IMG/VR virus record: IMGVR_UViG_3300024177_000003
Span: 5,683-69,682 of that record
Strand: one strand, 5' to 3'
Source of the DNA: a virus
DNA: 64,000 nucleotides
The position numbers were made by a program, and so were the translations under genes. Shown one piece after another: positions 1,333 to 25,394 of this stretch; position 1 is the first letter of the stretch, and every line of letters starts with the position of its first letter. Under the pieces are notes generated by a model. It did not search any database and was not told the DNA's origin. It saw only the letters and a list, made by a program, of their open reading frames with translations.

Positions 1333-1563
1333 ATGGCGGACGTGGCGGATATGGACATCGGCGACGCTGTCGCGGCGATGCGCGATGGCAAGAAGGTCAG
1401 CCGGCGCGACTGGGTCGGCCTGTGGATGGCCATGGGTCATGGCGGCGGCCAGGGCGTCGATCACCTACGGCTATACGAGATCGCGGGCCCACCCGAAGGG
1501 CTGCTGGCCAGCTCCATGGACCAGTTCGATGTCCTCGGCCAGGACTGGTACGTCGTTGAATGA
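1333..1563 (+). CDS. DUF2829 / Tad2-like protein (candidate anti-Thoeris/CBASS sponge)
   Basis: MDIGDAVAAMRDGKKVSRRDW...DVLGQDWYVVE matches the DUF2829 pattern (G.A...K.GKKV.R..W ... D.LA.DW.V). Confidence 0.65.
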   Translation: MADVADMDIGDAVAAMRDGKKVSRRDWVGLWMAMGHGGGQGVDHLRLYEIAGPPEGLLASSMDQFDVLGQDWYVVE

Positions 1564-3023
1564 GCATCGAATTCACGGCACCGCTGACGATCGCGCGGTT
1601 CATGCGGTCGGCCGCCTTCGGGCGACTGATCGCCGGCCCGGTCGGATCCGGCAAGACCACCGGCTGCGTCATGGAATGCCTGCGTCGGGCGATGGGGCAG
1701 TCAAAGGCCAAGGACGGCATCCGCTACACCCGGTTCGCCTTCGTCCGCCAAACGTTGAAGCAACTGAAGGATACAGTACTTAAAGATGTAAACTCCTGGC
1801 TCGCCGGGCTCGGCGAGTGGAAGGTGAGCGACGGGACCTATTATTTAAACTTTGGCGATGTCAACAGCGAGTGGATATTCGTCCCGCTGGAAAATTACGA
1901 CGATCAAGCCCGTTTATTGTCGATGCAGCTGACGGGGGCTTGGATATCCGAAGCGATCGAGTGTAATTTCGACATCCTCCCCGCTGTCAGCGGCCGTATC
2001 GGTCGTTACCCGTCAGGTAACAGGGGTGCCCCGACTTGGATGGGCATCATTGCCGACACGAATCTGCCGGTCGAAGGGAGCGACTGGTGGAAATTCATGA
2101 CCCAGCCGCCGCCGAACTGGCAGATCTTCATCCAACCCGGCGGCATGACCCCCGATGCCGAGAATTTAAATTATCTGCTCCAGACCGAAGAAACGATACG
2201 TCTGCCCATAAATCACCCCCGCCGACTCGCGCAGGGGCGACGTTACTACGAGCAGTTTGTTGAAATGTACGGGTCCGAGCACCTGTGGGTTCGACGCTAT
2301 GTAGACGCCCAATTTGGGGACGACCCCTCCGGCGAGGCCGTGTTCAAGGCTTCGTTCAAGTCGAATTTCCATGTGGTGGAAGACACCCTGATCATCCCCG
2401 GCTATCCGCTGATCATCGGCCAGGATTTCGGCCGCAACCCGTGGAGCCTGATCTGTCAGGTCGACCATATGGGCCGGCTGCTCGTGCACAAAGAAATTCC
2501 AGCAACCAACGTAGGCCTGGAGAAGCACGTCGAACAGAGCCTCCGCGGGGTTCTGTACCGCGAGGAGTTCATAGGCCTTAAAGTCATACTGGTCGGCGAT
2601 CCGTCCGGTGTCGCCAAGGGCACTATTGCCGAAGAGTCGAGCTTCGAGGCCTTGAAACGGATGGGCCTCCCTGCGTTCCCAGCTCCGACCAACGACATTG
2701 ACCCGCGCCTTCGGGCCGTCGAAGCGCTGCTCGGGCGGCAGACCAATGGCGGCCCGTCGCTGCTGATAAGCCGGCGAGGCTGCCCATTTCTGACTCGCGG
2801 GATGTCGGGCGGGTACCGTTATACGAAACACAAGGATGGCGCTCTCAAGACAGTGCCGGAGAAATACGACCGCGAAGGATTTTCGCACGTCGCCGACTGC
2901 CTGCAATATGTCTGTCTGGTCGTCCACGGCAACCTCGTGTTTGAATTTTCCAAGCGGTTAGCCGCGATGGGGATGAACAGGGCGGCCAACCGGCCACGCA
3001 TCAGCGCGACCGGCTGGACGTGA
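1560..3023 (+). CDS. terL: Terminase large subunit
   Basis: Walker A GPVGSGKT, Walker B-like AWISE, coupling motif ADTN, RNase H-like nuclease IGQDFG and SHVADCLQY. Confidence 0.93.
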   Translation: MSIEFTAPLTIARFMRSAAFGRLIAGPVGSGKTTGCVMECLRRAMGQSKAKDGIRYTRFAFVRQTLKQLKDTVLKDVNSWLAGLGEWKVSDGTYYLNFGDVNSEWIFVPLENYDDQARLLSMQLTGAWISEAIECNFDILPAVSGRIGRYPSGNRGAPTWMGIIADTNLPVEGSDWWKFMTQPPPNWQIFIQPGGMTPDAENLNYLLQTEETIRLPINHPRRLAQGRRYYEQFVEMYGSEHLWVRRYVDAQFGDDPSGEAVFKASFKSNFHVVEDTLIIPGYPLIIGQDFGRNPWSLICQVDHMGRLLVHKEIPATNVGLEKHVEQSLRGVLYREEFIGLKVILVGDPSGVAKGTIAEESSFEALKRMGLPAFPAPTNDIDPRLRAVEALLGRQTNGGPSLLISRRGCPFLTRGMSGGYRYTKHKDGALKTVPEKYDREGFSHVADCLQYVCLVVHGNLVFEFSKRLAAMGMNRAANRPRISATGWT

Positions 3024-3614
3024 GGGACGCTCTACAGTACCGAGTCACTACAGTCGGCCGGCACGCTTCGGCGGTGCGGAACAATTCGACGTCGACGGCA
3101 CGCTCTGGGTATCCGGGTCGATTTGAGATGCCGGCACGCTACGCGGCATCGGGTCGTTATCGCGGGATAGGCACGCTGCCGAAGCCAGGATCACTTTGTT
3201 CGGTTCGGCACACTCTGGTGGACGGGTCGATACTGTTACTCGGCACGCTCTGCAATTCCGGACCACTGCGTTCTGCCGGCACGCTACATCTTGGCGGGTC
3301 AATTCTAGACAAAGGCACGCTTCGGGCTCCCGTGGCATTCACAATGCCAGGCACGCTATTCAGTGAGCGGATCTATTCCCTCCTTCGGCACGCTGGCCGT
3401 GACCGGGTCACTATTTAGAAGCCGGCACGCTACGTTTACGATGGGGCATTAACGGGCCCGGCACGCTCTCCTAGGTACGAGTCATTTGACGTTGACGGCA
3501 CGCTGCGCGTCACCGGGTCGTTTAAATTATGCAGGCACGCTTGTTGGCTTCCGGGTCGTTACAACCAAAAGGCACACTTGCAGGGCCAGGGTCACTGCCA
3601 ATAACAGGCACGTT
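3024..3614 (-). ncRNA. TIGR-like dual-repeat guide array A (16 units)
   Basis: GGCACGCT-type repeats on + start at 3024, 3060, 3097, 3133, 3170, 3207, 3242, 3278, 3314, 3350, 3387, 3424, 3460, 3497, 3534, 3571 and 3607 (period 35-37). A second repeat (CGGGTC) lies midway, with ~9-nt variable segments between. Confidence 0.88.
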
Positions 3615-4114
3615 TATTTATTCACGGCATCGAGCAGCAAGTCAAGAATCTTCCGCCGATCATCTGTGGATAATTTATAGCCGTAGCCCCAACAGGTTAA
3701 GATCTGAACGTTGTACGGTGCGAGTGCACGCCGCAGTCGTGAAATGTGCACCTCGAGGCTGTTGGACGTTCGTGTGGCGTCTTTGGCAAATGACGGGTGC
3801 TGCAGCAGCGAGAGTAAAATATTGATTTGAACTTTGGTGATGCCGAGCAGCTGCTGCACAGCAACGATAAAATCCCGTTTATTTTCATGGATGATTCGCG
3901 ACAGCTGCAGCGCACGTTGATCGCGGGGGAAGCCCGGTGGCCAGTCAGCCCGCGGCAGGCCGGTGAGGTCTCCGGTGACGACGGCGGCCTCGAAGGTCTC
4001 CCGCAGCTGCGCGGCGGGCACGCGAACGGCACGCGCAATGGCAGCGAGTGGGACGCCTTCGTCGGCGAGGGCGAGCGCTATCGCTACGATATCGTGGGCC
4101 TGGCAGTCATGCAT
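3614..4114 (-). CDS. Winged-helix (OmpR/CtrA C-terminal-like) DNA-binding protein with an N-terminal HTH and no receiver domain
   Basis: C-terminal SLEVHISRLRRAL...ILTCWGYGYKL matches the Trans_reg_C signature. N-terminal VPLAAIARAVRV is HTH-like. Confidence 0.8.
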   Translation of the reverse strand: MHDCQAHDIVAIALALADEGVPLAAIARAVRVPAAQLRETFEAAVVTGDLTGLPRADWPPGFPRDQRALQLSRIIHENKRDFIVAVQQLLGITKVQINILLSLLQHPSFAKDATRTSNSLEVHISRLRRALAPYNVQILTCWGYGYKLSTDDRRKILDLLLDAVNK

Positions 4115-4147
4115 CCCCCAAACCTAGCTTGGAAGATGCACGACCAC

Positions 4148-4463
4148 AAGTCGCTACGTGGTGTCGGGATACTTTGTGTGAAAAGGCACGCTGTTTGATC
4201 CGAGGGGCGCTATCACACGCAGGCACGCTGCTGGATGACGGGTCGTTATATTCACACGGCACGCTGCTGCGTCTAGGGTCGTTGCTAGATTTCGGCACGC
4301 TTCCGAATCCCGGGCCAATAGCGGGCGACGGCACGCTTTGTAATCGCGACACGCTACCGCCATGAGGTTCTCTACTGTGGTTCGGCACGCTCGCCGACGC
4401 CGGGACACTGAGGTGCTTCGGCACGCTCCACAACTCCGGGGCATTCACATACTCCGGCATGTC
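4148..4463 (-). ncRNA. TIGR-like array B (~8 units plus one half unit)
   Basis: Same repeats at 4185, 4222, 4258, 4294, 4330, 4348, 4384 and 4420, with degenerate copies at 4148 and 4456. Confidence 0.85.
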
Positions 4464-4544
4464 GACCGGTGGACGAATCTTCAGCAAGGGAAGAAGACGC
4501 ATCCTTCGCCTCACGGCACGCCGACCGGCCGGCGCCTGCCGCCT

Positions 4545-4919
4545 TCAGGGCGGAAGCTTGGCATCGCATAAAATGGCTTCACGCAGCTCTTTGGCGAATT
4601 GCTGCAGTTCGCCGTGGATGCTGTTCATACGGGCCATGTCACGAGCGGTTGGTTCGGTGTTAGGATCGAGTATGGTCATGACTGAGGACCATAAATGCTG
4701 TGAACCGGCGAAAAACGCTATGCGGCAGATATCACGCATGTTGTCTGACATGTCGGCCGGCAGGCACACGCTGTTGAACGTCAGCCAGCCGCCTTGAACC
4801 AGGACGCCGCGGTCGGTCAGTTCTTCCGAGATACGAGCGGCGATACGATCGAGATCAGGACGTGCCATTGTAAACTCCCTTGCTGCCTGAACACTAGCGA
4901 GTTCGACGACGGCGTTCAA
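4545..4919 (-). CDS. Hypothetical phage protein
   Basis: ORF co-oriented with arrays A/B. Likely start is MARPDLDR after GGGAG. Confidence 0.65.
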   Translation of the reverse strand: MNAVVELASVQAAREFTMARPDLDRIAARISEELTDRGVLVQGGWLTFNSVCLPADMSDNMRDICRIAFFAGSQHLWSSVMTILDPNTEPTARDMARMNSIHGELQQFAKELREAILCDAKLPP

Positions 4920-5040
4920 GCTGTTTTATGTGGGTCGATCATGATACTACTCCATTTCCATTGTCATTTTGTATATTTTATACAATTTGTATTACGTTCT
5001 AGTAGATCTGGACGTTTTGTACAATGTTGCTAGGCCATCT

Positions 5041-5129
5041 CACACGGATACGTTAGTAAGTTTATACCTTTTTGTTTTTTGTGTCACACGAGTACGTTAG
5101 TAAGTTTATACCTTTTTGTTTTTTGTGTC
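5041..5129 (-). promoter_or_regulatory. 44-bp tandem repeat (x2) containing leftward sigma70-like promoters
   Basis: TACGTTAGTAAGTTTATACCTTTTTGTTTTTTGTGTC occurs at 5049 and 5093. On the minus strand the first copy reads GTGACA-17 nt-TAAACT. Confidence 0.6.
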
Positions 5130-5353
5130 GTGTGAATTTGTGGGTCACCTCATCATAACGCGCGCGGGGGTGGGCCGGTCCAGGGTGGGGTGGGGCCAGC
5201 GACGGTGGCCGAACACCAGAAGGTGTGGTGTCCGAACACCAGTTCAGTAGCAGGGAAGTCGCCGAAGGACTTTCGGCTACTAGCCTTTCAGCAAATCGGT
5301 AATTAGGTATATGCTAGTAGGCTAAGTGCTTGAAATCATTGGTGTTTTAGACC

Positions 5354-5651
5354 TCACTAGTTCACTAGATCGCGATTCCGGAACAACACCCCCTTTTTCT
5401 AACGAGGGGGGGAACGCCATTGGCCGGCACGCCCGTTCTGTTCTTGTTCTGTTTGAATAGTTCAATAGAACATTTTACCATAATAATATATATTTCGTGT
5501 GCAAGATAGTAGTATTATCGTACTAAACTATTGATCTAATTGATGGTAAAGAAGAAAACGTGATCAAATATATAGGCCTATTCATGCCTACGAAAAATTC
5601 CCCCTAAAACATGTGACTGTTGTTCCAAACTCGCTACTAGTGAACTACTGA
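5354..5651. other. AT-rich non-coding region bounded by imperfect inverted repeats (candidate origin or terminus)
   Basis: TCACTAGTTCACTAG (5354-5368) vs CTAGTGAACTACTGA (5637-5651), and GGAACAACA (5380-5388) vs TGTTGTTCC (5618-5626). Confidence 0.45.
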
Positions 5652-5792
5652 AAGACCCGATCGCGTCAGGTCTATGGGGCCGGGTGCCGTTCACGCGATT
5701 CCAGCAAAAGGTATTAAAATATTGTTGTACAATCGGAAAAATCTGCTACGTTAGGTGACAGTTGGAAAGGAAATACGTAAGGAGAACACCCC

Positions 5793-8113: not shown

Positions 8114-8284
8114 ATGAGTTTGTTGTTCAAGCAGCTAAACGAAGCGGAGCAAGCAAAAGCGCGGCAATGGGCGCGCGACAACTACCGGAAATTTTCGCCC
8201 ATCAACGGTATCTGGCATCCCATCGTTCGGGAGGAATGCGCCAAGATCAATGCGGAAACCGAGTCTTTGCCACGTATGGATTGA
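8114..8284 (+). CDS. Small hypothetical protein (56 aa, not in the ORF track)
   Basis: RBS AAGGAA; MSLLFKQLNEAEQAKARQWARDNY...INGIWHPIVREEC. Confidence 0.65.
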   Translation: MSLLFKQLNEAEQAKARQWARDNYRKFSPINGIWHPIVREECAKINAETESLPRMD

Positions 8285-8351
8285 TTGCAGTCTATGGCCA
8301 TGCCGTTGCATGGCCATAAGCGGCGATCATGCCGAGCAAGGGTAAACCCAC

Positions 8352-9215
8352 ATGAACATGCTTTACACGCAATCCGCTCGTTTCGACACCGGTCACGCTC
8401 TGACCGAAGATGAACTATTCAAGCTGGCACCGTCGGTGTTCGCCACCGATGCGCATCATTCCCGCTCCGAACGGTTCGCACCGGTGCCGACCATCGACAT
8501 GGTGCGCGGCTTGCGCAATGAAGGTTTCTGCGTCGTCGGCGCCAAACAGGCTGTCGCGCGCGTTGACGATAAGCGCAACTACACCAAGCACATGTTGCGT
8601 ATACGCCACATTGACGACATGCGGCATCACAAGGTCGGTGACACGGTTGCCGAAATGTACCTGAAAAACGCCAATGACGGCACTTGCGCTTATGAACTGA
8701 TGGCGGGCTTGTTTCGCATCCAATGCCTCAACAGCTTGGTTGCGCAGACCGATACGATCGACAGCATCAAAGTTTACCATAAGGGGCGAGCGCTTGAACA
8801 AGTCATTGAAGGCACCTACCGCGTCATCGGCGAATCGCAGAAACTACTGGACAATCGCGAGCGATGGGGCGACCTCCAGCTTAACCACGGTCAACGCAAT
8901 GCCTTCGCCGAAGCCGCTCACGTATTACGATTTGATTTGCAGAACGAATCGGACGCGGCACGCGAAACGCACGCAATCAAGCCAACGGCATTGTTAAGCC
9001 CGCGCCGCTTTGACGATCAAGGTACCGATCTATGGACGACCTTGAACGTGGTACAGGAAAATTGCATGCGCGGCGGGCTGACCGGCATCGGTCGTGACGC
9101 CAATAATCGGCGCCGTCGCACCACGACACGGGAGGTGAAAGGCATCGATCAGGACGTCAAGCTGAATAAGGCATTGTGGGTTCTGACCGAGCGCATGGCG
9201 CAGCTAGTCGCGTAA
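8352..9215 (+). CDS. DUF932 family protein
   Basis: APSVFA..AH.SRSERF, TKHMLR, NANDGT, AGLFRIQCLNSL, DLWTTLNVVQEN, LNKALW. Confidence 0.9.
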   Translation: MNMLYTQSARFDTGHALTEDELFKLAPSVFATDAHHSRSERFAPVPTIDMVRGLRNEGFCVVGAKQAVARVDDKRNYTKHMLRIRHIDDMRHHKVGDTVAEMYLKNANDGTCAYELMAGLFRIQCLNSLVAQTDTIDSIKVYHKGRALEQVIEGTYRVIGESQKLLDNRERWGDLQLNHGQRNAFAEAAHVLRFDLQNESDAARETHAIKPTALLSPRRFDDQGTDLWTTLNVVQENCMRGGLTGIGRDANNRRRRTTTREVKGIDQDVKLNKALWVLTERMAQLVA

Positions 9216-21198: not shown

Positions 21199-21888
21199 AT
21201 GTCATCACAGACGACCGATAAAGGCTTCGCCTTCAGCTACAGCCGCATCAAGGAATACGAAAATTGTCCAAGACGGTACTATGAGACACAGGTCGCCAAG
21301 ACCACCAAGGACACATCCGATCTGCTGGAAGAAGGCGACAAAGTCCACAAGGCCATGGCCAAGGCCTTGATGGACGGCACCCCCCTGCCGCTCAAATATC
21401 GCCAGTGGCAGAAATGGATCGACCGGGTGGCACAGACTCCGGGCGAAATGCTGATCGAAGACGAAGCCCGCTGGGCTTGCACCCGTGATTTCAAGCCGGT
21501 GCCGTTCTTCGCCCCTACGGTGTGGGGGCGGTGTATTGTCGATGTCTACAAGCACGCGCCGCCGGTCGGCTATATCGTCGACTGGAAGGCGGGTAAGAGC
21601 GCGAATGTCGATCCGGTGCAGATGACGCTGATGGCGTTGATGGCATTCATCCACTTTCCGGAGATTGAAATTGTCAAGGGATTTTTTATATGGTTAGGTG
21701 AAGATGATAGTACATCGTACGTCATCGATCGCGAAGATGCCGTCCAACACTGGACGGCGTTAATACCAAGGGTGAAGAGACTTGAAAAAGCAACCAAAGA
21801 CGGCTTCTTCCCGCCGACCCCGAACCGATTCTGTGAACGGTGGTGCCCCTGCACCAATTGTGAGCACAACGGTTCATATGAAGGCTAG
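21199..21888 (+). CDS. PD-(D/E)XK (Cas4/RecB-like) exonuclease
   Basis: SYSRI..YENCPRRY, GDKVH, IVDWKAGK, and a C-terminal C..WCPC..C cluster. Confidence 0.88.
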   Translation: MSSQTTDKGFAFSYSRIKEYENCPRRYYETQVAKTTKDTSDLLEEGDKVHKAMAKALMDGTPLPLKYRQWQKWIDRVAQTPGEMLIEDEARWACTRDFKPVPFFAPTVWGRCIVDVYKHAPPVGYIVDWKAGKSANVDPVQMTLMALMAFIHFPEIEIVKGFFIWLGEDDSTSYVIDREDAVQHWTALIPRVKRLEKATKDGFFPPTPNRFCERWCPCTNCEHNGSYEG

Positions 21889-22285
21889 GCGGCGGGGCCG
21901 GCCACCGAAAGTTCAAGCTGCCCCTGCCGTCGAAAAGAAGGTCCGTAAGGCTCGCGGTCCCGTCAAGCCGACGACGGTGGTCAAGCCGCGGACGCAGGCA
22001 GCGGGCAAGCAGCGCTGTCCGACCTGTGGTGCGTCGTGGCAACCGCCGCTCGATAACGGCGTGCAGCTGACCCCGATCAAGTCGAAGATTTACGACAAGG
22101 TCAAACGCGCTGGGAAGAGCGGAATCGCCATGAGCGATCTTATCGGCAGCGTCTACGGTGACGAGCATGTGACCACGCAGGCGATGCGCAGTCATATCTG
22201 GCAGATCAACGAGCGGCTGGAAGAGGTCGGCACGGCGATCAGGGCGCGGCATGGCGCCTATGTGCTCGAACAGCGTGCCGGATGA
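21878..22285 (+). CDS. Winged-helix (OmpR C-terminal-like) protein with a CxxC and AT-hook-like N-terminus
   Basis: RRGRPP, CPTCG, LTPIKSKIY...LIGSVYG...MRSHIWQINERL...GAYVL. Confidence 0.7.
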   Translation: MKARRRGRPPKVQAAPAVEKKVRKARGPVKPTTVVKPRTQAAGKQRCPTCGASWQPPLDNGVQLTPIKSKIYDKVKRAGKSGIAMSDLIGSVYGDEHVTTQAMRSHIWQINERLEEVGTAIRARHGAYVLEQRAG

Positions 22286-22403
22286 TTTTTCATCTCGTCT
22301 TACATCGGCACGTTGCCGATTTTCTGGCATGCGGTTGGGTGGTGCGCGCCGATCTCGGCGACTACCACGGCCAGTTTGCGGTTATGATGCAGTGGCTTTG
22401 CGA

Positions 22404-22432
22404 TTGCCCCATTCGGAAGCCACTGTTATAAA
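22404..22432 (+). promoter_or_regulatory. Putative promoter for array C and the tas operon
   Basis: TTGCCC-17 nt-TATAAA ends just before the first array unit and overlaps the inverted repeat CAGTGGCTT/AAGCCACTG. Confidence 0.5.
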
Positions 22433-22434
22433 AT

Positions 22435-23051
22435 AACCGCCGGGCGAGGCTAATTGACCCTGACGAAGACAGCGTGCCGGAACCGTAAGAACCATCCGAC
22501 ATTGGGCAGCGTGCCGGAGAAATTCAACTGACCCTAACGACGGTAGCGTGCCGGAACGATATAAGTGACCCTGACGAAGGCAGCGTGCCTGGTGCAACAA
22601 CAGCCACGGACACGTCTTAGCGTGCCGAAGCGCGCCAGTGACCCGTTTCCATATAGCGCGCCCCATGGAACGACAGACCCGAATCCCAATAGCGCGCCGA
22701 TTCCACATAAAAAAGCGCTTGAACTTTTCGGCAACCCGTGTCAACAAACACGGGTCGCCGTGATAGGCGAATGATCCGGGTTGATTAAGCGTGTCGGGGC
22801 GATCTAGCAGTAGCCGTCTAAGAGAAGCGTGCCTTTCCCCACAAGTCATCCAAAACTGAAAGCGTGCCAATGCGGCACAGAGACCCGCAAGGAAAAAGCG
22901 TGCCGGTCAGGGTAAAAGCCTCGATCCCAAGAAGCGTGCCGTACTCATGAAATAACCCCGGCAGACATAGCGCGCCGGCGATGCCCTAGAGACCCGACAC
23001 CCGCAAGCGTGCCGATCTCGCGCCAGTGACCCGGATCCCGATTAGCGTGAA
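22435..23051 (+). ncRNA. TIGR-like array C (~15 units, interrupted by a hairpin)
   Basis: AGCGYGCC-type repeats at 22471, 22508, 22545, 22582, 22619, 22655, 22691, 22788, 22826, 22861, 22897, 22933, 22969, 23006 and 23044, with GACCC loop repeats between. Confidence 0.9.
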
Positions 23052-23097
23052 GAAGCGAAGGAAACAGCATGGGTAAAGAGCAAGGGGAACCCCAATA

Positions 23098-24150
23098 ATG
23101 GCGAAAGACAAGAAAAAGTCCAAAAAGCGCGAGCGGCTGGAACAAACACTCGACCTTCAGCCGCCGGTGTCGGATATGTCATCCGAGGAACTTAAGGCAG
23201 CAGAAATCCACGCCTTGCGCCTCCTCACCCGGGGCGCCTACGCGCTGCAGAAGCTCCGCATCCAGATGGGGCTTCGTCTCTGTGCTAACTTTCGCAATAA
23301 ACTGAAAGTGTCCATTGATGACGTCATCAATGATGAAGAGGATGACGCCGATGAGCTGAGCGAGAAGGCGCAGAGCATTATCGACATGCTCAAGCTGGAA
23401 TACGGCAGGTTGACCGACGGCATCGCCAAGAATCGCACCCTGCCGCGGCGTGAGGGCTTTGTCGGCACCGGCGTGATCTCGACGTTCACCGAACTCGCGC
23501 TGATCGATGATTACCTGTATTTGGAATCGCGTGAGAAAAAACAATTCCGCCATATCGGCGATGCCCTGCAGGATTTCGCCATCTATCGCGATTGGCTGCG
23601 CCATCAGATCGGCATCGGGCCGGCCATGGCGGCCGTGCTGATCACCAAGTTCGACGTCCATAAAGCGGTTCGTCCAAGCCAATTCTGGGCCATCGCAGGA
23701 CTCGATGTTGGTCCGGACGGCAAGGCGCGGTGCCGGCGCAAGGAACATCTCATCGAGCGCGAATACGTTGCCAAGGACGGCAAGACCAAAAAGAAACTCT
23801 CGACAACCTTTGATACATGGCTACAATCACGGTTGCTGGGCGCTTTGGGGACGTCGCTGATGCGAACGGGTTCACCGTATAAACGCTTCTACGACGGCTA
23901 TAAAAAACGTAAACAGGACGACCCGAATATCCGGCACGGGACACTGAAAGATAAAAAAGCGGATATCGACGCCGGCTTGGACGGCGATGACATCTGGCAC
24001 CCGTTGCGGATCCACCGTGCTGCCAGCCGGTACATGGTGAAAACATTCGTCGCCGACTTTTGGCGGCGGTGGCGCGAGATCGAGGGGCTGCCCGTTGTTC
24101 CGACATACCACGAAGCCAAGCAGGGCGGGCACAGCGGGAGGGCAGCATGA
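23098..24150 (+). CDS. TasA-like Nop-domain / IS110-related RNA-binding protein lacking a nuclease domain
   Basis: Coiled-coil LRLLTRGAYALQKLRIQMG, HhH-like GIGPAMAAVLI, SQFWAIAGL and IHRAASRYMVK. No N-terminal DEDD RuvC, no HNH, no IS110 catalytic-Ser 'SSG' loop. Flanked by 36-nt dual-repeat arrays. Confidence 0.85.
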   Translation: MAKDKKKSKKRERLEQTLDLQPPVSDMSSEELKAAEIHALRLLTRGAYALQKLRIQMGLRLCANFRNKLKVSIDDVINDEEDDADELSEKAQSIIDMLKLEYGRLTDGIAKNRTLPRREGFVGTGVISTFTELALIDDYLYLESREKKQFRHIGDALQDFAIYRDWLRHQIGIGPAMAAVLITKFDVHKAVRPSQFWAIAGLDVGPDGKARCRRKEHLIEREYVAKDGKTKKKLSTTFDTWLQSRLLGALGTSLMRTGSPYKRFYDGYKKRKQDDPNIRHGTLKDKKADIDAGLDGDDIWHPLRIHRAASRYMVKTFVADFWRRWREIEGLPVVPTYHEAKQGGHSGRAA

Positions 24151-24398
24151 AAACCACACGGCTTCCTAAATTCGCTTGTCTAGCCTGTGGATCGGTTCAT
24201 GATGCGGCGACGCATCCGACCGGCAACCACAAGCCGAAGAAAGGCGACATCTTCGTCTGCGTTCGCTGTGGAGCCCCGGCAATTTTTGAGAATCCGAATA
24301 CGATCAGGCAGATGACAGAAAAGGAGAAAGCTGAAGAAATGAAAGTAAATCCGGATCTTGTACAAGTGCAAACGGCAGTCCGGATGCTGCGTAATTAG
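24147..24398 (+). CDS. Small zinc-ribbon protein
   Basis: CLACG...CVRCG; ATGA-coupled to the Tas-like gene. Confidence 0.7.
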   Translation: MKTTRLPKFACLACGSVHDAATHPTGNHKPKKGDIFVCVRCGAPAIFENPNTIRQMTEKEKAEEMKVNPDLVQVQTAVRMLRN

Positions 24399-24439
24399 CG
24401 TGCCGTCCAAGTGCGAATGACCCGACATGAGAAAGCGCC
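24397..24439 (+). ncRNA. Solitary TIGR-like unit between two genes
   Basis: AGCGTGCCG TCCAAGTGCG AATGACCCG ACATGAGAA AGCGCC fills the whole intergenic gap. Confidence 0.75.
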
Positions 24440-24670
24440 ATGCCAAAACTCGGACCGACCGGTGACTACCCTGAAGGCAAGTTGAACGGTGATGACGAAG
24501 GCGGGATCGCGATCGGTGTCGCCTATGACCCGGAAAAGGACGTCGTGGTCGTCAATTTCGGCAAGCCGATTAGGTGGGTAGCTATGCCGCCAGCCGACGC
24601 AATCGCGTTCGCGCGCATGATTTTATCATCAGCGCATCGTGAACATGACGGGAAGAATCTGCCGGTGTGA
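24440..24670 (+). CDS. Hypothetical protein
   Basis: LGPTGDYPEGKLNGDDEG...VVNFGKPIRWVAM, a recurrent phage family pattern. Confidence 0.75.
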   Translation: MPKLGPTGDYPEGKLNGDDEGGIAIGVAYDPEKDVVVVNFGKPIRWVAMPPADAIAFARMILSSAHREHDGKNLPV

Positions 24671-25394
24671 TAAAGATATCCGACGGATCTTAGCGTGCCG
24701 ATGTGGTAAAGTGAAGACCGTAAAGGAGGAGCGTGCCGGAGCGACAAAGAGAACCGTTAGCACGTAGCGCGCCGACAGCGACAAAGAGATCCGACGGCTT
24801 GCAGCGCGCCGCTTAAACGTAGTTGACACCTAAGGACGATAGCGTGCCGTGCGAGACAAGACATCCGTAGTAAAGTAGCGCGCCGCTCATCAAGAACGAT
24901 CCGGAGATGAGCAGCGTGTCGTCATCGCGTAGAGACCCGCAGACCTGAAGCGTGCCGAATGTCCAGAAAGCCCCGATGTGGTGGAGTGTGCCGAACAAGC
25001 TGTGTTCGCGGACCCGTCAACGAGTAGCGTGCCGTTGGGACGAAGAGACCCGTGGCGATGGAGCGCGCCATAAATACTAGTCACCCGGAAACGAGTAGCG
25101 TGCCGAGGACGGCGAAACACCCTTGAAAGACAAGCGCGCCGTGATTGCGCAGTGACCCGGTAGACCGTAGCGTGCCGTACGTAAACAAAGCCCCGGATGA
25201 AGGAAAGCGTGCCATGAGCCGATAGTGACCCGAAGATGGTGAGCGTGCCGGTATTTGACAGCGACCCTCGGATCTCTAGCGTGCCGCGACCCTTAAAGTG
25301 ATCCGATCGCGCCAAGCGTGCCCGGTGGTTAAGATACCCGACAACCCGTAGCGTGCCGGATATTAGCAAGAGACCCGTCGTAGCGTAGCGTGTT
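24657..25394 (+). ncRNA. TIGR-like array D (~20 units)
   Basis: Edge repeats at 24692, 24730, 24766, 24803, 24841, 24877, 24913, 24949, 24985, 25026, 25062, 25097, 25133, 25169, 25206, 25242, 25278, 25315, 25350 and 25387. Example unit: AGCGTGCCG TTGGGACGA AGAGACCCG TGGCGATGG (9+9+9+9). Confidence 0.9.

What the first reader, a model, noticed from the sequence alone, without database searches (positions are those of the whole stretch)
3024..4463. Two orphan guide arrays ~19 kb from the effector gene, on the opposite strand
Seen in sequence: about 24 more units with the same two repeats, in reverse orientation and with no Tas-like gene nearby. They are co-oriented with 4545-4919 and 3614-4114, downstream of the duplicated leftward promoter at 5041-5129. 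Array A fills exactly the space between the wHTH stop (3614) and the convergent terL stop (3023). Inference: one effector in this window is fed in trans by about 60 guides from two separately promoted loci, which could give time-staged guide sets. It also implies the arrays can spread independently of the effector gene.
Basis: partly seen in the sequence, partly recalled or inferred. Interest (0 to 1): 0.85.

Follow-up and report, generated by a model that had tools for sequence, protein, structure and literature searches.

The report
Remote TIGR guide arrays in a phage
A soil phage carries two extra arrays of short dual-spacer guide RNAs about 19 kb from, and on the opposite strand to, its only Tas gene, which suggests that one RNA-guided protein can be supplied with guides from several separate operons.

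Summary
Window 3023-3614 (16 full units plus a terminal edge) and 4147-4463 (8 full units plus a half unit) are regular dual-repeat TIGR arrays read on the minus strand. Each unit has edge AGCGUGCCG, a 9-nt spacer, loop AGYGACCCG and a second 9-nt spacer, as in the arrays flanking the gene at 23098-24150.

That gene is a nuclease-free, TasA-class Tas protein. It keeps the Tyr/His dyad that processes pre-tigRNA in SpTasH. It is the only tas match in the complete 69.7-kb genome.

The remote arrays lie in a leftward operon (orf4545, array B, winged-helix gene, array A). Their spacers are all different from those of the proximal arrays. They occur in contigs of four soil runs, with unit turnover in one strain.

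Dispersed arrays with a single tas recur in unrelated phages. G013 and G016 have them on the opposite strand, 10-43 kb away. Published surveys scanned only 5-10 kb around tas.

Expression and loading in trans are inferred, not shown. Spread without the effector is not supported.

One remote guide nearly matches terL of related phages. This is suggestive only.

The parts
3023..3614 (-). Remote TIGR array A. It has 16 full 35-37-nt units plus a terminal degenerate edge, and fills the gap between the winged-helix gene stop and the convergent terL stop.
   Evidence: 13 of 16 parsed edges are exactly AGCGTGCC.
4147..4463 (-). Remote TIGR array B. It has 8 full units plus one 18-nt half unit, starts with a 5'-degenerate edge, and ends 33 nt before the ATG of the winged-helix gene.
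   Evidence: 6 of 6 cleanly parsed edges are exact.
3614..4114 (-). 166-aa winged-helix gene (Trans_reg_C C-terminal domain, no receiver domain) lying between arrays B and A.
   Evidence: Pfam PF00486, E 9.4e-8. Homologues lie convergent downstream of terL in 16 of 38 relatives that have no arrays.
4545..4919 (-). orf4545, 124 aa from TTG (107 aa from the ATG at 4868), first gene of the leftward unit, function unknown.
   Evidence: No Pfam or PHROG match. A 39% identical homologue lies between arrays in G020. The database holds only the 107-aa form of the protein itself.
5040..5129 (.). 44-nt tandem duplication in the AT-rich region upstream of the leftward unit; a candidate promoter region.
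   Evidence: TRF: 2.0 copies, 95% matches. One weak -35/-10 match on the minus strand, not above chance.
23098..24150 (+). The only tas gene of the genome. It encodes a 350-aa TasA-class (nuclease-free) Nop-domain protein with the Tyr337/His345 dyad.
22471..23052 (+). Proximal array upstream of tas, interrupted at about 22700-22790.
24397..24432 (+). Single TIGR unit between the zinc-ribbon ORF and the 76-aa ORF.
24692..25390 (+). Proximal array downstream of tas.
3032..3067 (-). Last full unit of array A. Its two spacers, read in the published tandem geometry, nearly match a conserved terL site of related phages.
2892..2909 (+). The phage's own terL site homologous to that candidate target. 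It differs from the guide's composite target at 4 of 18 positions, all synonymous.
1560..3023 (+). terL (large terminase), convergent with array A.
   Evidence: PHROG 2, E 5.2e-21. 38 relatives at 60-77% identity.

Best explanation
Arrays A and B are working dual-repeat TIGR arrays of the same TIGR-Tas system as the arrays beside the gene at 23098-24150, placed in a different operon on the other strand.

The most likely mechanism is as follows.
1. The leftward unit (orf4545, array B, winged-helix gene, array A) is transcribed as one precursor from the AT-rich region near 4920-5130.
2. The single TasA-class protein, made from the rightward replication-module operon 19 kb away, binds the edge and loop repeats in trans.
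3. It cuts within the edge repeats with its Tyr337/His345 dyad and keeps about 24 extra 36-nt tigRNAs. This raises the repertoire to about 60.
4. Because the protein has no nuclease domain, the guides would direct DNA binding (blocking transcription or replication) rather than cutting.

Shown here: the array anatomy, identical repeats on both loci, one tas gene in a complete genome, conserved processing residues, presence in several samples, unit turnover between strains, and recurrence of the layout in other phages.

Inferred: transcription, processing in trans, loading, and the repressive outcome.
For: 1. Anatomy. The 36-nt units (9+9+9+9) have an edge and a loop that both begin with AG and end with CCG. 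The ninth base of edge and loop covaries (CCG/CCG or CCA/CCA) in 24 of 24 array sources, as Faure 2025 (PMC12045711, section 8 read) describes for box C.

2. Conservation. Remote repeats are as well kept as proximal ones. Exact AGCGTGCC is found in 13/16 (A) and 6/6 (B) units, against 9/12 and 11/18 in the proximal arrays. All spacers are different: no pair within 6 of 18 differences among 52 units.

3. The effector is a Tas protein. Phmmer against PDB gives TasR 9mty E 4.3e-6 and TasH E 5.9e-6. The profile gives TasH E 2.5e-17. The AF2 model has pLDDT 88, and its Foldseek top 10 hits are all TIGR-TasR or TasH, E 6e-8 to 2e-5. There is no Pfam nuclease domain.

4. Processing residues. Y337 and H345 align with SpTasH Y289 and H296. 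These are the catalytic residues for autonomous pre-tigRNA processing (PMC13421893, passages read). Y337 is invariant in 32 homologues.

5. One tas gene in the record, which CheckV rates 100% complete.

6. Not an assembly artefact. Contigs of 4 soil runs cover the arrays. In the divergent strain X4, 65 nt of array A are replaced by 30 other letters, another contig skips 143 nt, and a loose end shows a different unit.

7. Recurrence. G013 has one tas at 55.6 kb (+) and minus-strand arrays at 11.0-11.8, 12.2-12.9 and 38.5 kb. G016 has one tas at 22.6 kb (+) and minus-strand arrays at 6.4, 7.5 and 12.1 kb. G006 has a co-oriented array 9 kb away.

8. In every case looked at, the arrays are co-oriented with the flanking ORFs.
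Against: - There is no expression evidence of any kind. No RNA run holds the stretch.
- Promoter-like and terminator-like sites around the locus are not above chance.
- Array B is irregular. It has a half unit, and only 3 of 6 parsed loops end in CCG.
- Loading in trans has been shown in the literature only for arrays cloned next to tas. I saw no experiment with a separate array locus.
- Natural targets remain uncertain (see the novel case). Without them, selection on the remote spacers cannot be shown directly.
- A divergent or host-encoded second effector cannot be excluded by sequence searches.
Confidence: 0.7

Rival explanations
1. The remote arrays are relics. They were moved away from tas by a rearrangement or recombination, and are no longer transcribed or loaded, simply drifting.
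For: They are far from tas and on the other strand. No promoter or terminator stands out. Array B has a half unit and weaker loops. The terL relatives lack arrays altogether, so the arrays are a recent arrival.
Against: Edge repeats are better kept than in the proximal arrays (13/16 and 6/6 exact against 9/12 and 11/18). The 35-37-nt period is intact over 590 nt. The arrays exactly fill intergenic gaps and are co-oriented with their neighbours. The same layout recurs in G013 and G016, which showed no terL match to this phage. A strain shows replacement of units rather than decay.
Confidence: 0.13
2. The units act mainly in cis as Tas-dependent RNA processing sites. They would punctuate the leftward operon and so control the stability or translation of the orf4545 and winged-helix mRNAs. 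Guide function would be secondary.
For: Array A starts at the stop codon of the winged-helix gene. Array B ends 33 nt before its start codon. Protein genes are likewise embedded between units at the tas locus and in G013 (an 81-aa ORF between two arrays). SpTasH cuts inside edge repeats (PMC13421893).
Against: Two or three units would be enough for processing, whereas 24 units with all-different spacers and strain-level spacer turnover point to selection on guide diversity. This reading does not exclude guide function.
Confidence: 0.1
3. A second, unrecognised effector serves the remote arrays. It could be a divergent phage protein such as orf4545, or a host protein.
For: orf4545 sits directly upstream of array B, and its only homologues found lie in other TIGR phages, one of them between arrays. 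It has no known family.
Against: The repeats are identical to those at the tas locus, so the known Tas should bind them. orf4545 is 107-124 aa, which is too small for a Nop domain with a coiled coil. The profile search finds one tas only. orf4545 is absent from most of the Tas loci searched.
Confidence: 0.05

Closest known systems
Dual-repeat TIGR-TasA systems (Faure et al. 2025, Science; PMC12045711, sections 4-8, 10 and 24 read), for example the Flavonifractor plautii FpTasA locus
   Same: 36-nt units made of edge repeat, 9-nt spacer A, loop repeat and 9-nt spacer B. Edge and loop are pseudo-symmetric, with covarying box C/D-like ends. The Nop-domain protein has no nuclease. The system is carried by a phage.
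   Different: Published arrays lie directly upstream, downstream or inside tas, and were sought within 5 kb (Faure, Methods section 24) or 10 kb (Xu et al. 2026, Methods passage). Here two arrays lie 18.6-19.5 kb away on the other strand, inside another operon.
SpTasH of Salicola phage CGphi29 (PDB 9w03, 21kl and others; PMC13421893, passages read)
   Same: The Nop domain aligns (profile E 2.5e-17). The autonomous processing dyad Y289/H296 aligns with Y337/H345. It uses dual-repeat guides and is phage-encoded.
   Different: SpTasH has an N-terminal HNH nuclease and cuts DNA. This protein has a helical N-terminus and no nuclease domain.
RNA-guided repression by TasA and dead TasR (Xu et al. 2026, bioRxiv 10.64898/2026.09.09.750476; sections 5 and 10-13 read)
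   Same: Nuclease-free Tas proteins bind DNA and silence genes, which is the outcome proposed here. That paper states that natural targets and array acquisition are unknown.
   Different: The TasA tested there (MbTasA) was reprogrammed, and BlTasA uses stem-loop guides. No remote or opposite-strand arrays are described in the sections I read. Its TIGRSafari tables were not available to me.
Orphan and multiple CRISPR arrays served in trans by one cas operon (recalled general knowledge, not taken from any call)
   Same: Several arrays with one repeat type are scattered in a genome and share one effector.
   Different: The repeat and guide architecture differs and the effector family is unrelated. 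No adaptation genes are present. Here the arrays are interleaved with protein genes inside operons.

Membership tests
Dual-repeat TIGR array | Two distinct alternating 8-12-nt repeats separated by spacers of about 9 nt, giving a unit of about 36 nt | tested here: met
   edge 9, spacer 9, loop 9, spacer 9. Unit lengths in array A are 36 (7 units), 37 (8) and 35 (1).
Dual-repeat TIGR array | Edge and loop repeats share box D-like starts and box C-like ends that covary | tested here: met
   Both start with AG and end with CCG. The consensus ninth base agrees between edge and loop in 24 of 24 sources, 7 with G and 17 with A.
Dual-repeat TIGR array | Spacers are variable and not repeated | tested here: met
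   No two of 52 units lie within 6 of 18 differences (only pairs with equal spacer lengths were compared).
Dual-repeat TIGR array | Lies directly upstream, downstream or inside a tas gene | tested here: not met
   Arrays A and B lie 18.6-19.5 kb from the only tas gene, on the other strand. The feature is met by the proximal arrays.
Dual-repeat TIGR array | Starts with a 5'-truncated edge and ends with a 3'-truncated edge followed by an intrinsic terminator | tested here: inconclusive
   Degenerate first and last edges are present. No terminator-like site follows array A on the minus strand apart from a weak one inside terL at 2887-2871, and the count is not above chance.
Dual-repeat TIGR array | Transcribed and processed into 36-nt tigRNAs bound by Tas | not testable with these tools
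   No RNA run is listed for the stretch.
Tas protein, TasA class | Nop / IS110-type RNA-binding domain with a coiled coil | tested here: met
   (TasR and TasH are the top sequence and fold matches, followed by IS621 recombinase). The model has pLDDT 88.
Tas protein, TasA class | No HNH or RuvC nuclease domain | tested here: met
   No Pfam family at E <= 0.01. Residues 1-106 are predicted as helices only. The best 120 homologues listed are 261-375 aa long. A novel small nuclease fold is not formally excluded.
Tas protein, TasA class | Tyr/His processing dyad of dual-repeat systems | tested here: met
   Y337 and H345 align with SpTasH Y289 and H296. Y337 is invariant in 32 sequences. The dyad is reported as conserved in dual-repeat systems (Xu 2026, section 10).
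CRISPR array | One identical direct repeat of about 25-36 nt separated by spacers of similar size | tested here: not met
   The repeats are 9 nt long, of two kinds, with 9-nt spacers.

The most novel reading that the evidence does not exclude
In this clade of phages, TIGR arrays are not an appendage of tas. They are dispersed through several operons on both strands, so guide production is wired to different transcription programmes, and one nuclease-free TasA is fed in trans.

The guides are aimed at the packaging genes (terL and the portal or connector gene) of related phages that compete for the same host. The phage's own copies would be protected by synonymous or seed mismatches. This would amount to RNA-guided exclusion of rival phages.

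Remote arrays would also explain tas loci that published surveys called 'arrayless'.
Probability: 0.25. Interest if true: 0.85.

Novelty: new variant of a known kind. Interest (0 to 1): 0.66.

Why it matters
TIGR-Tas systems were described in 2025. Their array surveys looked only 5-10 kb around tas. Their natural targets, the way arrays grow, and how guide expression is organised are all stated as open questions (PMC12045711 Discussion; Xu 2026 Discussion).

This phage is a complete genome in which a single TasA-class gene coexists with four arrays on both strands. The same layout appears in two phages (G013, G016) that showed no terL match to it. Together these show three things:
- Array searches must cover whole genomes.
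- Loading in trans is probably normal for this system.
- Arrays can sit inside ordinary operons between protein genes.

The phage also offers a concrete, testable candidate for a natural target: a terL site in related phages. Finally, it is a natural case for testing whether Tas processing shapes the neighbouring mRNAs.

Tried and rejected
Target searches
- Self-targeting: no site in the phage's own genome lies within 2 mismatches of any guide in any geometry. Counts at 3 mismatches were 3, 4, 2 and 4 for the four geometries.
- Targets in relatives, allowing 0-2-bp gaps: 6 of 46 guides had hits, against 4.8 expected from 400 mispaired controls. No enrichment.
- All 484 unique 36-nt guides from all Tas phages, against the 1.39-Mb session database: 28 had hits, against a control rate of 6.3%, P = 0.72. 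No general signal.
- Exact composite target of the last unit of array A: 0 matches in viral contigs. Two metagenome records matched, but in an unrelated AT-rich context that is not a terL homologue.

Searches that returned nothing useful
- A single-protein Tas search of viral contigs found nothing, because the peptide patterns came from variable parts. The alignment-based search worked.
- Genome contigs gave no terL relative and no Tas relative. The host is unknown and host targeting could not be tested.
- No RNA holder was listed for the stretch.
- Rfam gave nothing at threshold in 2500-5700, only a JUMPstart match at E 0.69.

Ideas rejected
- The idea that both array loci adjoin paralogous winged-helix genes. 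The 3614-4114 and 21782-22285 products show no BLASTP similarity (E 50), and only the first matches Trans_reg_C.
- The apparent minus-strand 'array' of G020 at 29.85 kb. It is a GC-rich coding repeat, not an array.

Literature
- Searches for orphan, distant or in-trans TIGR arrays found nothing relevant. One search was badly designed and is not evidence.
- PMC13171457 was opened by mistake and is an unrelated Cas9 paper.
- Supplements (Faure table S1 and fig. S4; TIGRSafari) were not seen and may list loci with several arrays.
Full report
WHAT IS THERE

The window is bases 5683-69682 of a 69,682-base virus record that CheckV rates 100% complete. The two ends of the record overlap by about 130 bases.

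The 8-mer GGCACGCT occurs 49 times against 3.8 expected. It falls in four clusters. Two are on the + strand (13 copies at 3060-3541 and 7 at 4185-4427) and two on the - strand (11 at 22272-23013 and 13 at 24397-25357). Spacing is 35-37 nt.

Read in the sense AGCGTGCC, every cluster resolves into units of edge AGCGUGCCG, a spacer of about 9 nt, loop AGYGACCCG and a second spacer of about 9 nt.

- Array A occupies 3023-3614 on the minus strand, with 16 full units. Its first, degenerate edge overlaps the stop of the 3614-4114 gene. Its last, degenerate edge overlaps the final base of the terL stop.
- Array B occupies 4147-4463, with 8 full units and one half unit. It begins with a degenerate edge and ends 33 nt before the ATG of the 3614-4114 gene.
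- Mixed unit lengths of 35, 36 and 37 nt break every reading frame, so the ORFs listed inside the arrays are not genes.

THE EFFECTOR

The 350-aa product of 23098-24150 has no Pfam match. Several results show it is a Tas protein:
- Phmmer against the PDB finds TIGR-TasR (9mty, E 4.3e-6) and TasH (E 5.9e-6).
- A profile of 32 homologues finds TasH at E 2.5e-17.
- An AlphaFold model (pLDDT 88) has TasR and TasH as its ten best Foldseek matches (E 6e-8 to 2e-5), followed by IS621 recombinase.

The N-terminal 106 residues are predicted as helices, and no HNH or RuvC domain is detected. The best 120 homologues listed (of 383 with E <= 0.001) are 261-375 aa long. I therefore file it as TasA class.

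Y337 and H345 align with Y289 and H296 of SpTasH. Those are the residues that catalyse autonomous, metal-independent pre-tigRNA processing (PMC13421893, passages read). They are reported as conserved in dual-repeat systems (Xu et al. 2026, section 10). Y337 is invariant in my 32-sequence alignment.

The genome has one tas match only, both by protein search and by profile at E <= 1. The 5.7 kb outside the window holds no array.

CONTEXT OF THE REMOTE ARRAYS

On the minus strand the order is as follows:
1. An AT-rich region with a 44-nt tandem duplication (5040-5129).
2. orf4545 (no known family).
3. Array B.
4. A 166-aa winged-helix gene (Trans_reg_C, E 9.4e-8).
5. Array A, which ends against the convergent terL (PHROG 2, E 5.2e-21).

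There is no room for a promoter between the winged-helix gene and array A, so read-through from upstream is the simplest reading. The sigma-70 and terminator scans give nothing above chance. The promoter role of the duplication therefore remains a guess.

Comparison with relatives:
- Thirty-eight loci of phages with terL at 60-77% identity were fetched. None has such arrays.
- Sixteen of the 38 keep a convergent winged-helix homologue downstream of terL, and 0 of 38 have orf4545. In those I looked at, other, apparently coding sequence fills the gap.
- Five near-complete relatives gave no tas match (the tool warns that this blank proves little) and contributed no array units.

The TIGR-Tas system, remote arrays included, is therefore an acquisition of this lineage.

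ARE THE REMOTE ARRAYS ALIVE?

- Their edges are at least as well kept as the proximal ones. Exact 8-mers number 13/16 and 6/6, against 9/12 and 11/18.
- The variant edge AGCGCGCC is found in 7 of 30 proximal units and 0 of 22 remote units. No spacer pair is shared. The remote arrays are therefore not recent copies of the proximal ones.
- Contigs of four soil-metagenome runs cover the arrays (X1 may be the source sample). X2 and X3 match without listed differences.
- In the more divergent X4 strain, one contig replaces 65 nt of array A (3250-3314, two units) with 30 other letters. Another contig skips 143 nt. A loose end at 3567 shows a unit with other spacers (depth is about 2-4, so each rests on one contig).

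This looks like turnover of units rather than decay. No RNA run was available.

IS THE LAYOUT UNIQUE?

The same edge motif was found in 17 stretches of 14 viral contigs. An alignment-based search found 28 viral loci with Tas homologues at 40-66% identity.

Within 10 kb of tas, 26 of those 28 loci show periodic repeats, all in the orientation of tas. L049 and L103 show none.

Looking at whole records changes the picture:
- G013: one tas at 55.6 kb (+). Plus-strand arrays lie beside it. Minus-strand arrays lie at 11.0-11.8 and 12.2-12.9 kb, flanking an 81-aa minus-strand ORF, and at 38.5 kb.
- G016: one tas at 22.6 kb (+). Minus-strand arrays lie at 6.4, 7.5 and 12.1 kb.
- G006: a second co-oriented array 9 kb from tas.
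- G020: four co-oriented arrays spread over 9 kb. Its apparent minus-strand array proved false.

Each of these records has a single tas by profile search. G013 and G016 showed no terL match to this phage. Wherever I looked, arrays are co-oriented with the flanking ORFs.

Twelve lineages with long records were examined: G000, G006, G007/G008, G011, G012, G013, G014, G015, G016, G017/G018, G019 and G020. Three have opposite-strand remote arrays (G000, G013, G016).

Published surveys extracted 5 kb (Faure 2025, Methods section 24) or up to 10 kb (Xu 2026, Methods passage) around tas. I found no mention of orphan, distant or in-trans arrays in the held literature.

TARGETS (SUGGESTIVE ONLY)

From the reported 8-nt 3' overhangs (PMC12045711, section 7), I derived the tandem geometry: the target equals spacer A followed by the reverse complement of spacer B.

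In this geometry, against the terL relatives:
- There are 12 sites within 2 mismatches, against 1, 1 and 1 in three control geometries.
- For the 26 canonical 9+9 guides, 4 have such a site, against 3.2% of 650 mispaired controls (binomial P = 0.009).

The four guides behave as follows:
- The last unit of array A (3032-3067) matches a conserved in-frame terL site. L024 differs at 1 position, and L003, L004, L029, L030 and L032 at 2.
- If G-U wobble pairs are counted as pairs, the sites in L024, L003 and L004 have no true mismatch. One of 26 guides reaches this level, against a control rate of 0.15% (P = 0.04).
- The phage's own site (2892-2909) differs at 4 positions, all synonymous. By my reading, three of these are wobble pairs and one is a C-A mismatch at spacer B position 4, inside the published seed. 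That last step is inference.
- Two proximal guides near-match the portal or connector gene of the same relatives (PHROG 332 E 2.8e-40 and portal PHROG 1216 E 4e-9). At those sites the phage's own protein sequence differs. The fourth guide's sites, in L011 and L035, gave no match to the phage's own genome.

Against this reading:
- Allowing gaps removes the enrichment.
- 484 guides from all Tas phages show none (P = 0.72).
- No exact match exists in a terL homologue.
- The analysis was post hoc.

I rate the target reading at roughly one in four.

VERDICT

It is best read as a TIGR-Tas system whose arrays are distributed over at least two transcription units on opposite strands and share one TasA-class effector.

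It is a new variant of a known kind. Its main value is that it widens where TIGR arrays should be looked for, makes trans loading and operon-embedded guide production testable, and gives a first candidate natural target.

The idea of arrays spreading without the effector is not supported.

Noticed in passing
L123 (G020) 8122-8412; window 4545-4919: orf4545 has a 39% identical homologue in another TIGR phage, lying between two co-oriented arrays. Two more homologues (48% identity) lie in L098 and L099, about 5 kb from tas. It could be an array-associated accessory gene. No family is known for it.
   Followed up: partly
window 5022 and 5040-5129: Contigs of strains X3 and X4 leave the window sequence at 5022, both continuing with the same other letters. 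This lies just left of the 44-nt tandem duplication, so the regulatory region beside the leftward unit is a recombination breakpoint between strains.
   Followed up: no
window 22471-25390 against 3023-4463: The edge variant AGCGCGCC occurs in 7 of 30 parsed proximal units and 0 of 22 remote units. This suggests that the two loci evolve separately.
   Followed up: partly
window 22700-22790: The proximal upstream array is interrupted by about 90 nt that contain a GC-rich hairpin. This could be an internal terminator or a processing element.
   Followed up: no
One of those phages is a terL relative of this phage. The overall statistics are not significant.
   Followed up: partly
L125 (genome 3902-5569, minus strand; outside the window): A portal or connector gene (PHROG 332 and 1216) lies divergent from the terS/terL block. 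Its relatives carry the near-matches to two proximal guides.
   Followed up: partly
genome ends (G000 1-130 and 69550-69682): The two ends of the record repeat each other, with a one-base difference. The record is therefore a complete circularly closed or terminally redundant assembly, although it is labelled linear.
   Followed up: no
window 24147-24398 and 24440-24670: A zinc-ribbon ORF (83 aa) and a 76-aa ORF are embedded between TIGR units downstream of tas. The zinc-ribbon ORF has 35-37% identical homologues next to tas in L091/L053 and L093.
   Followed up: partly
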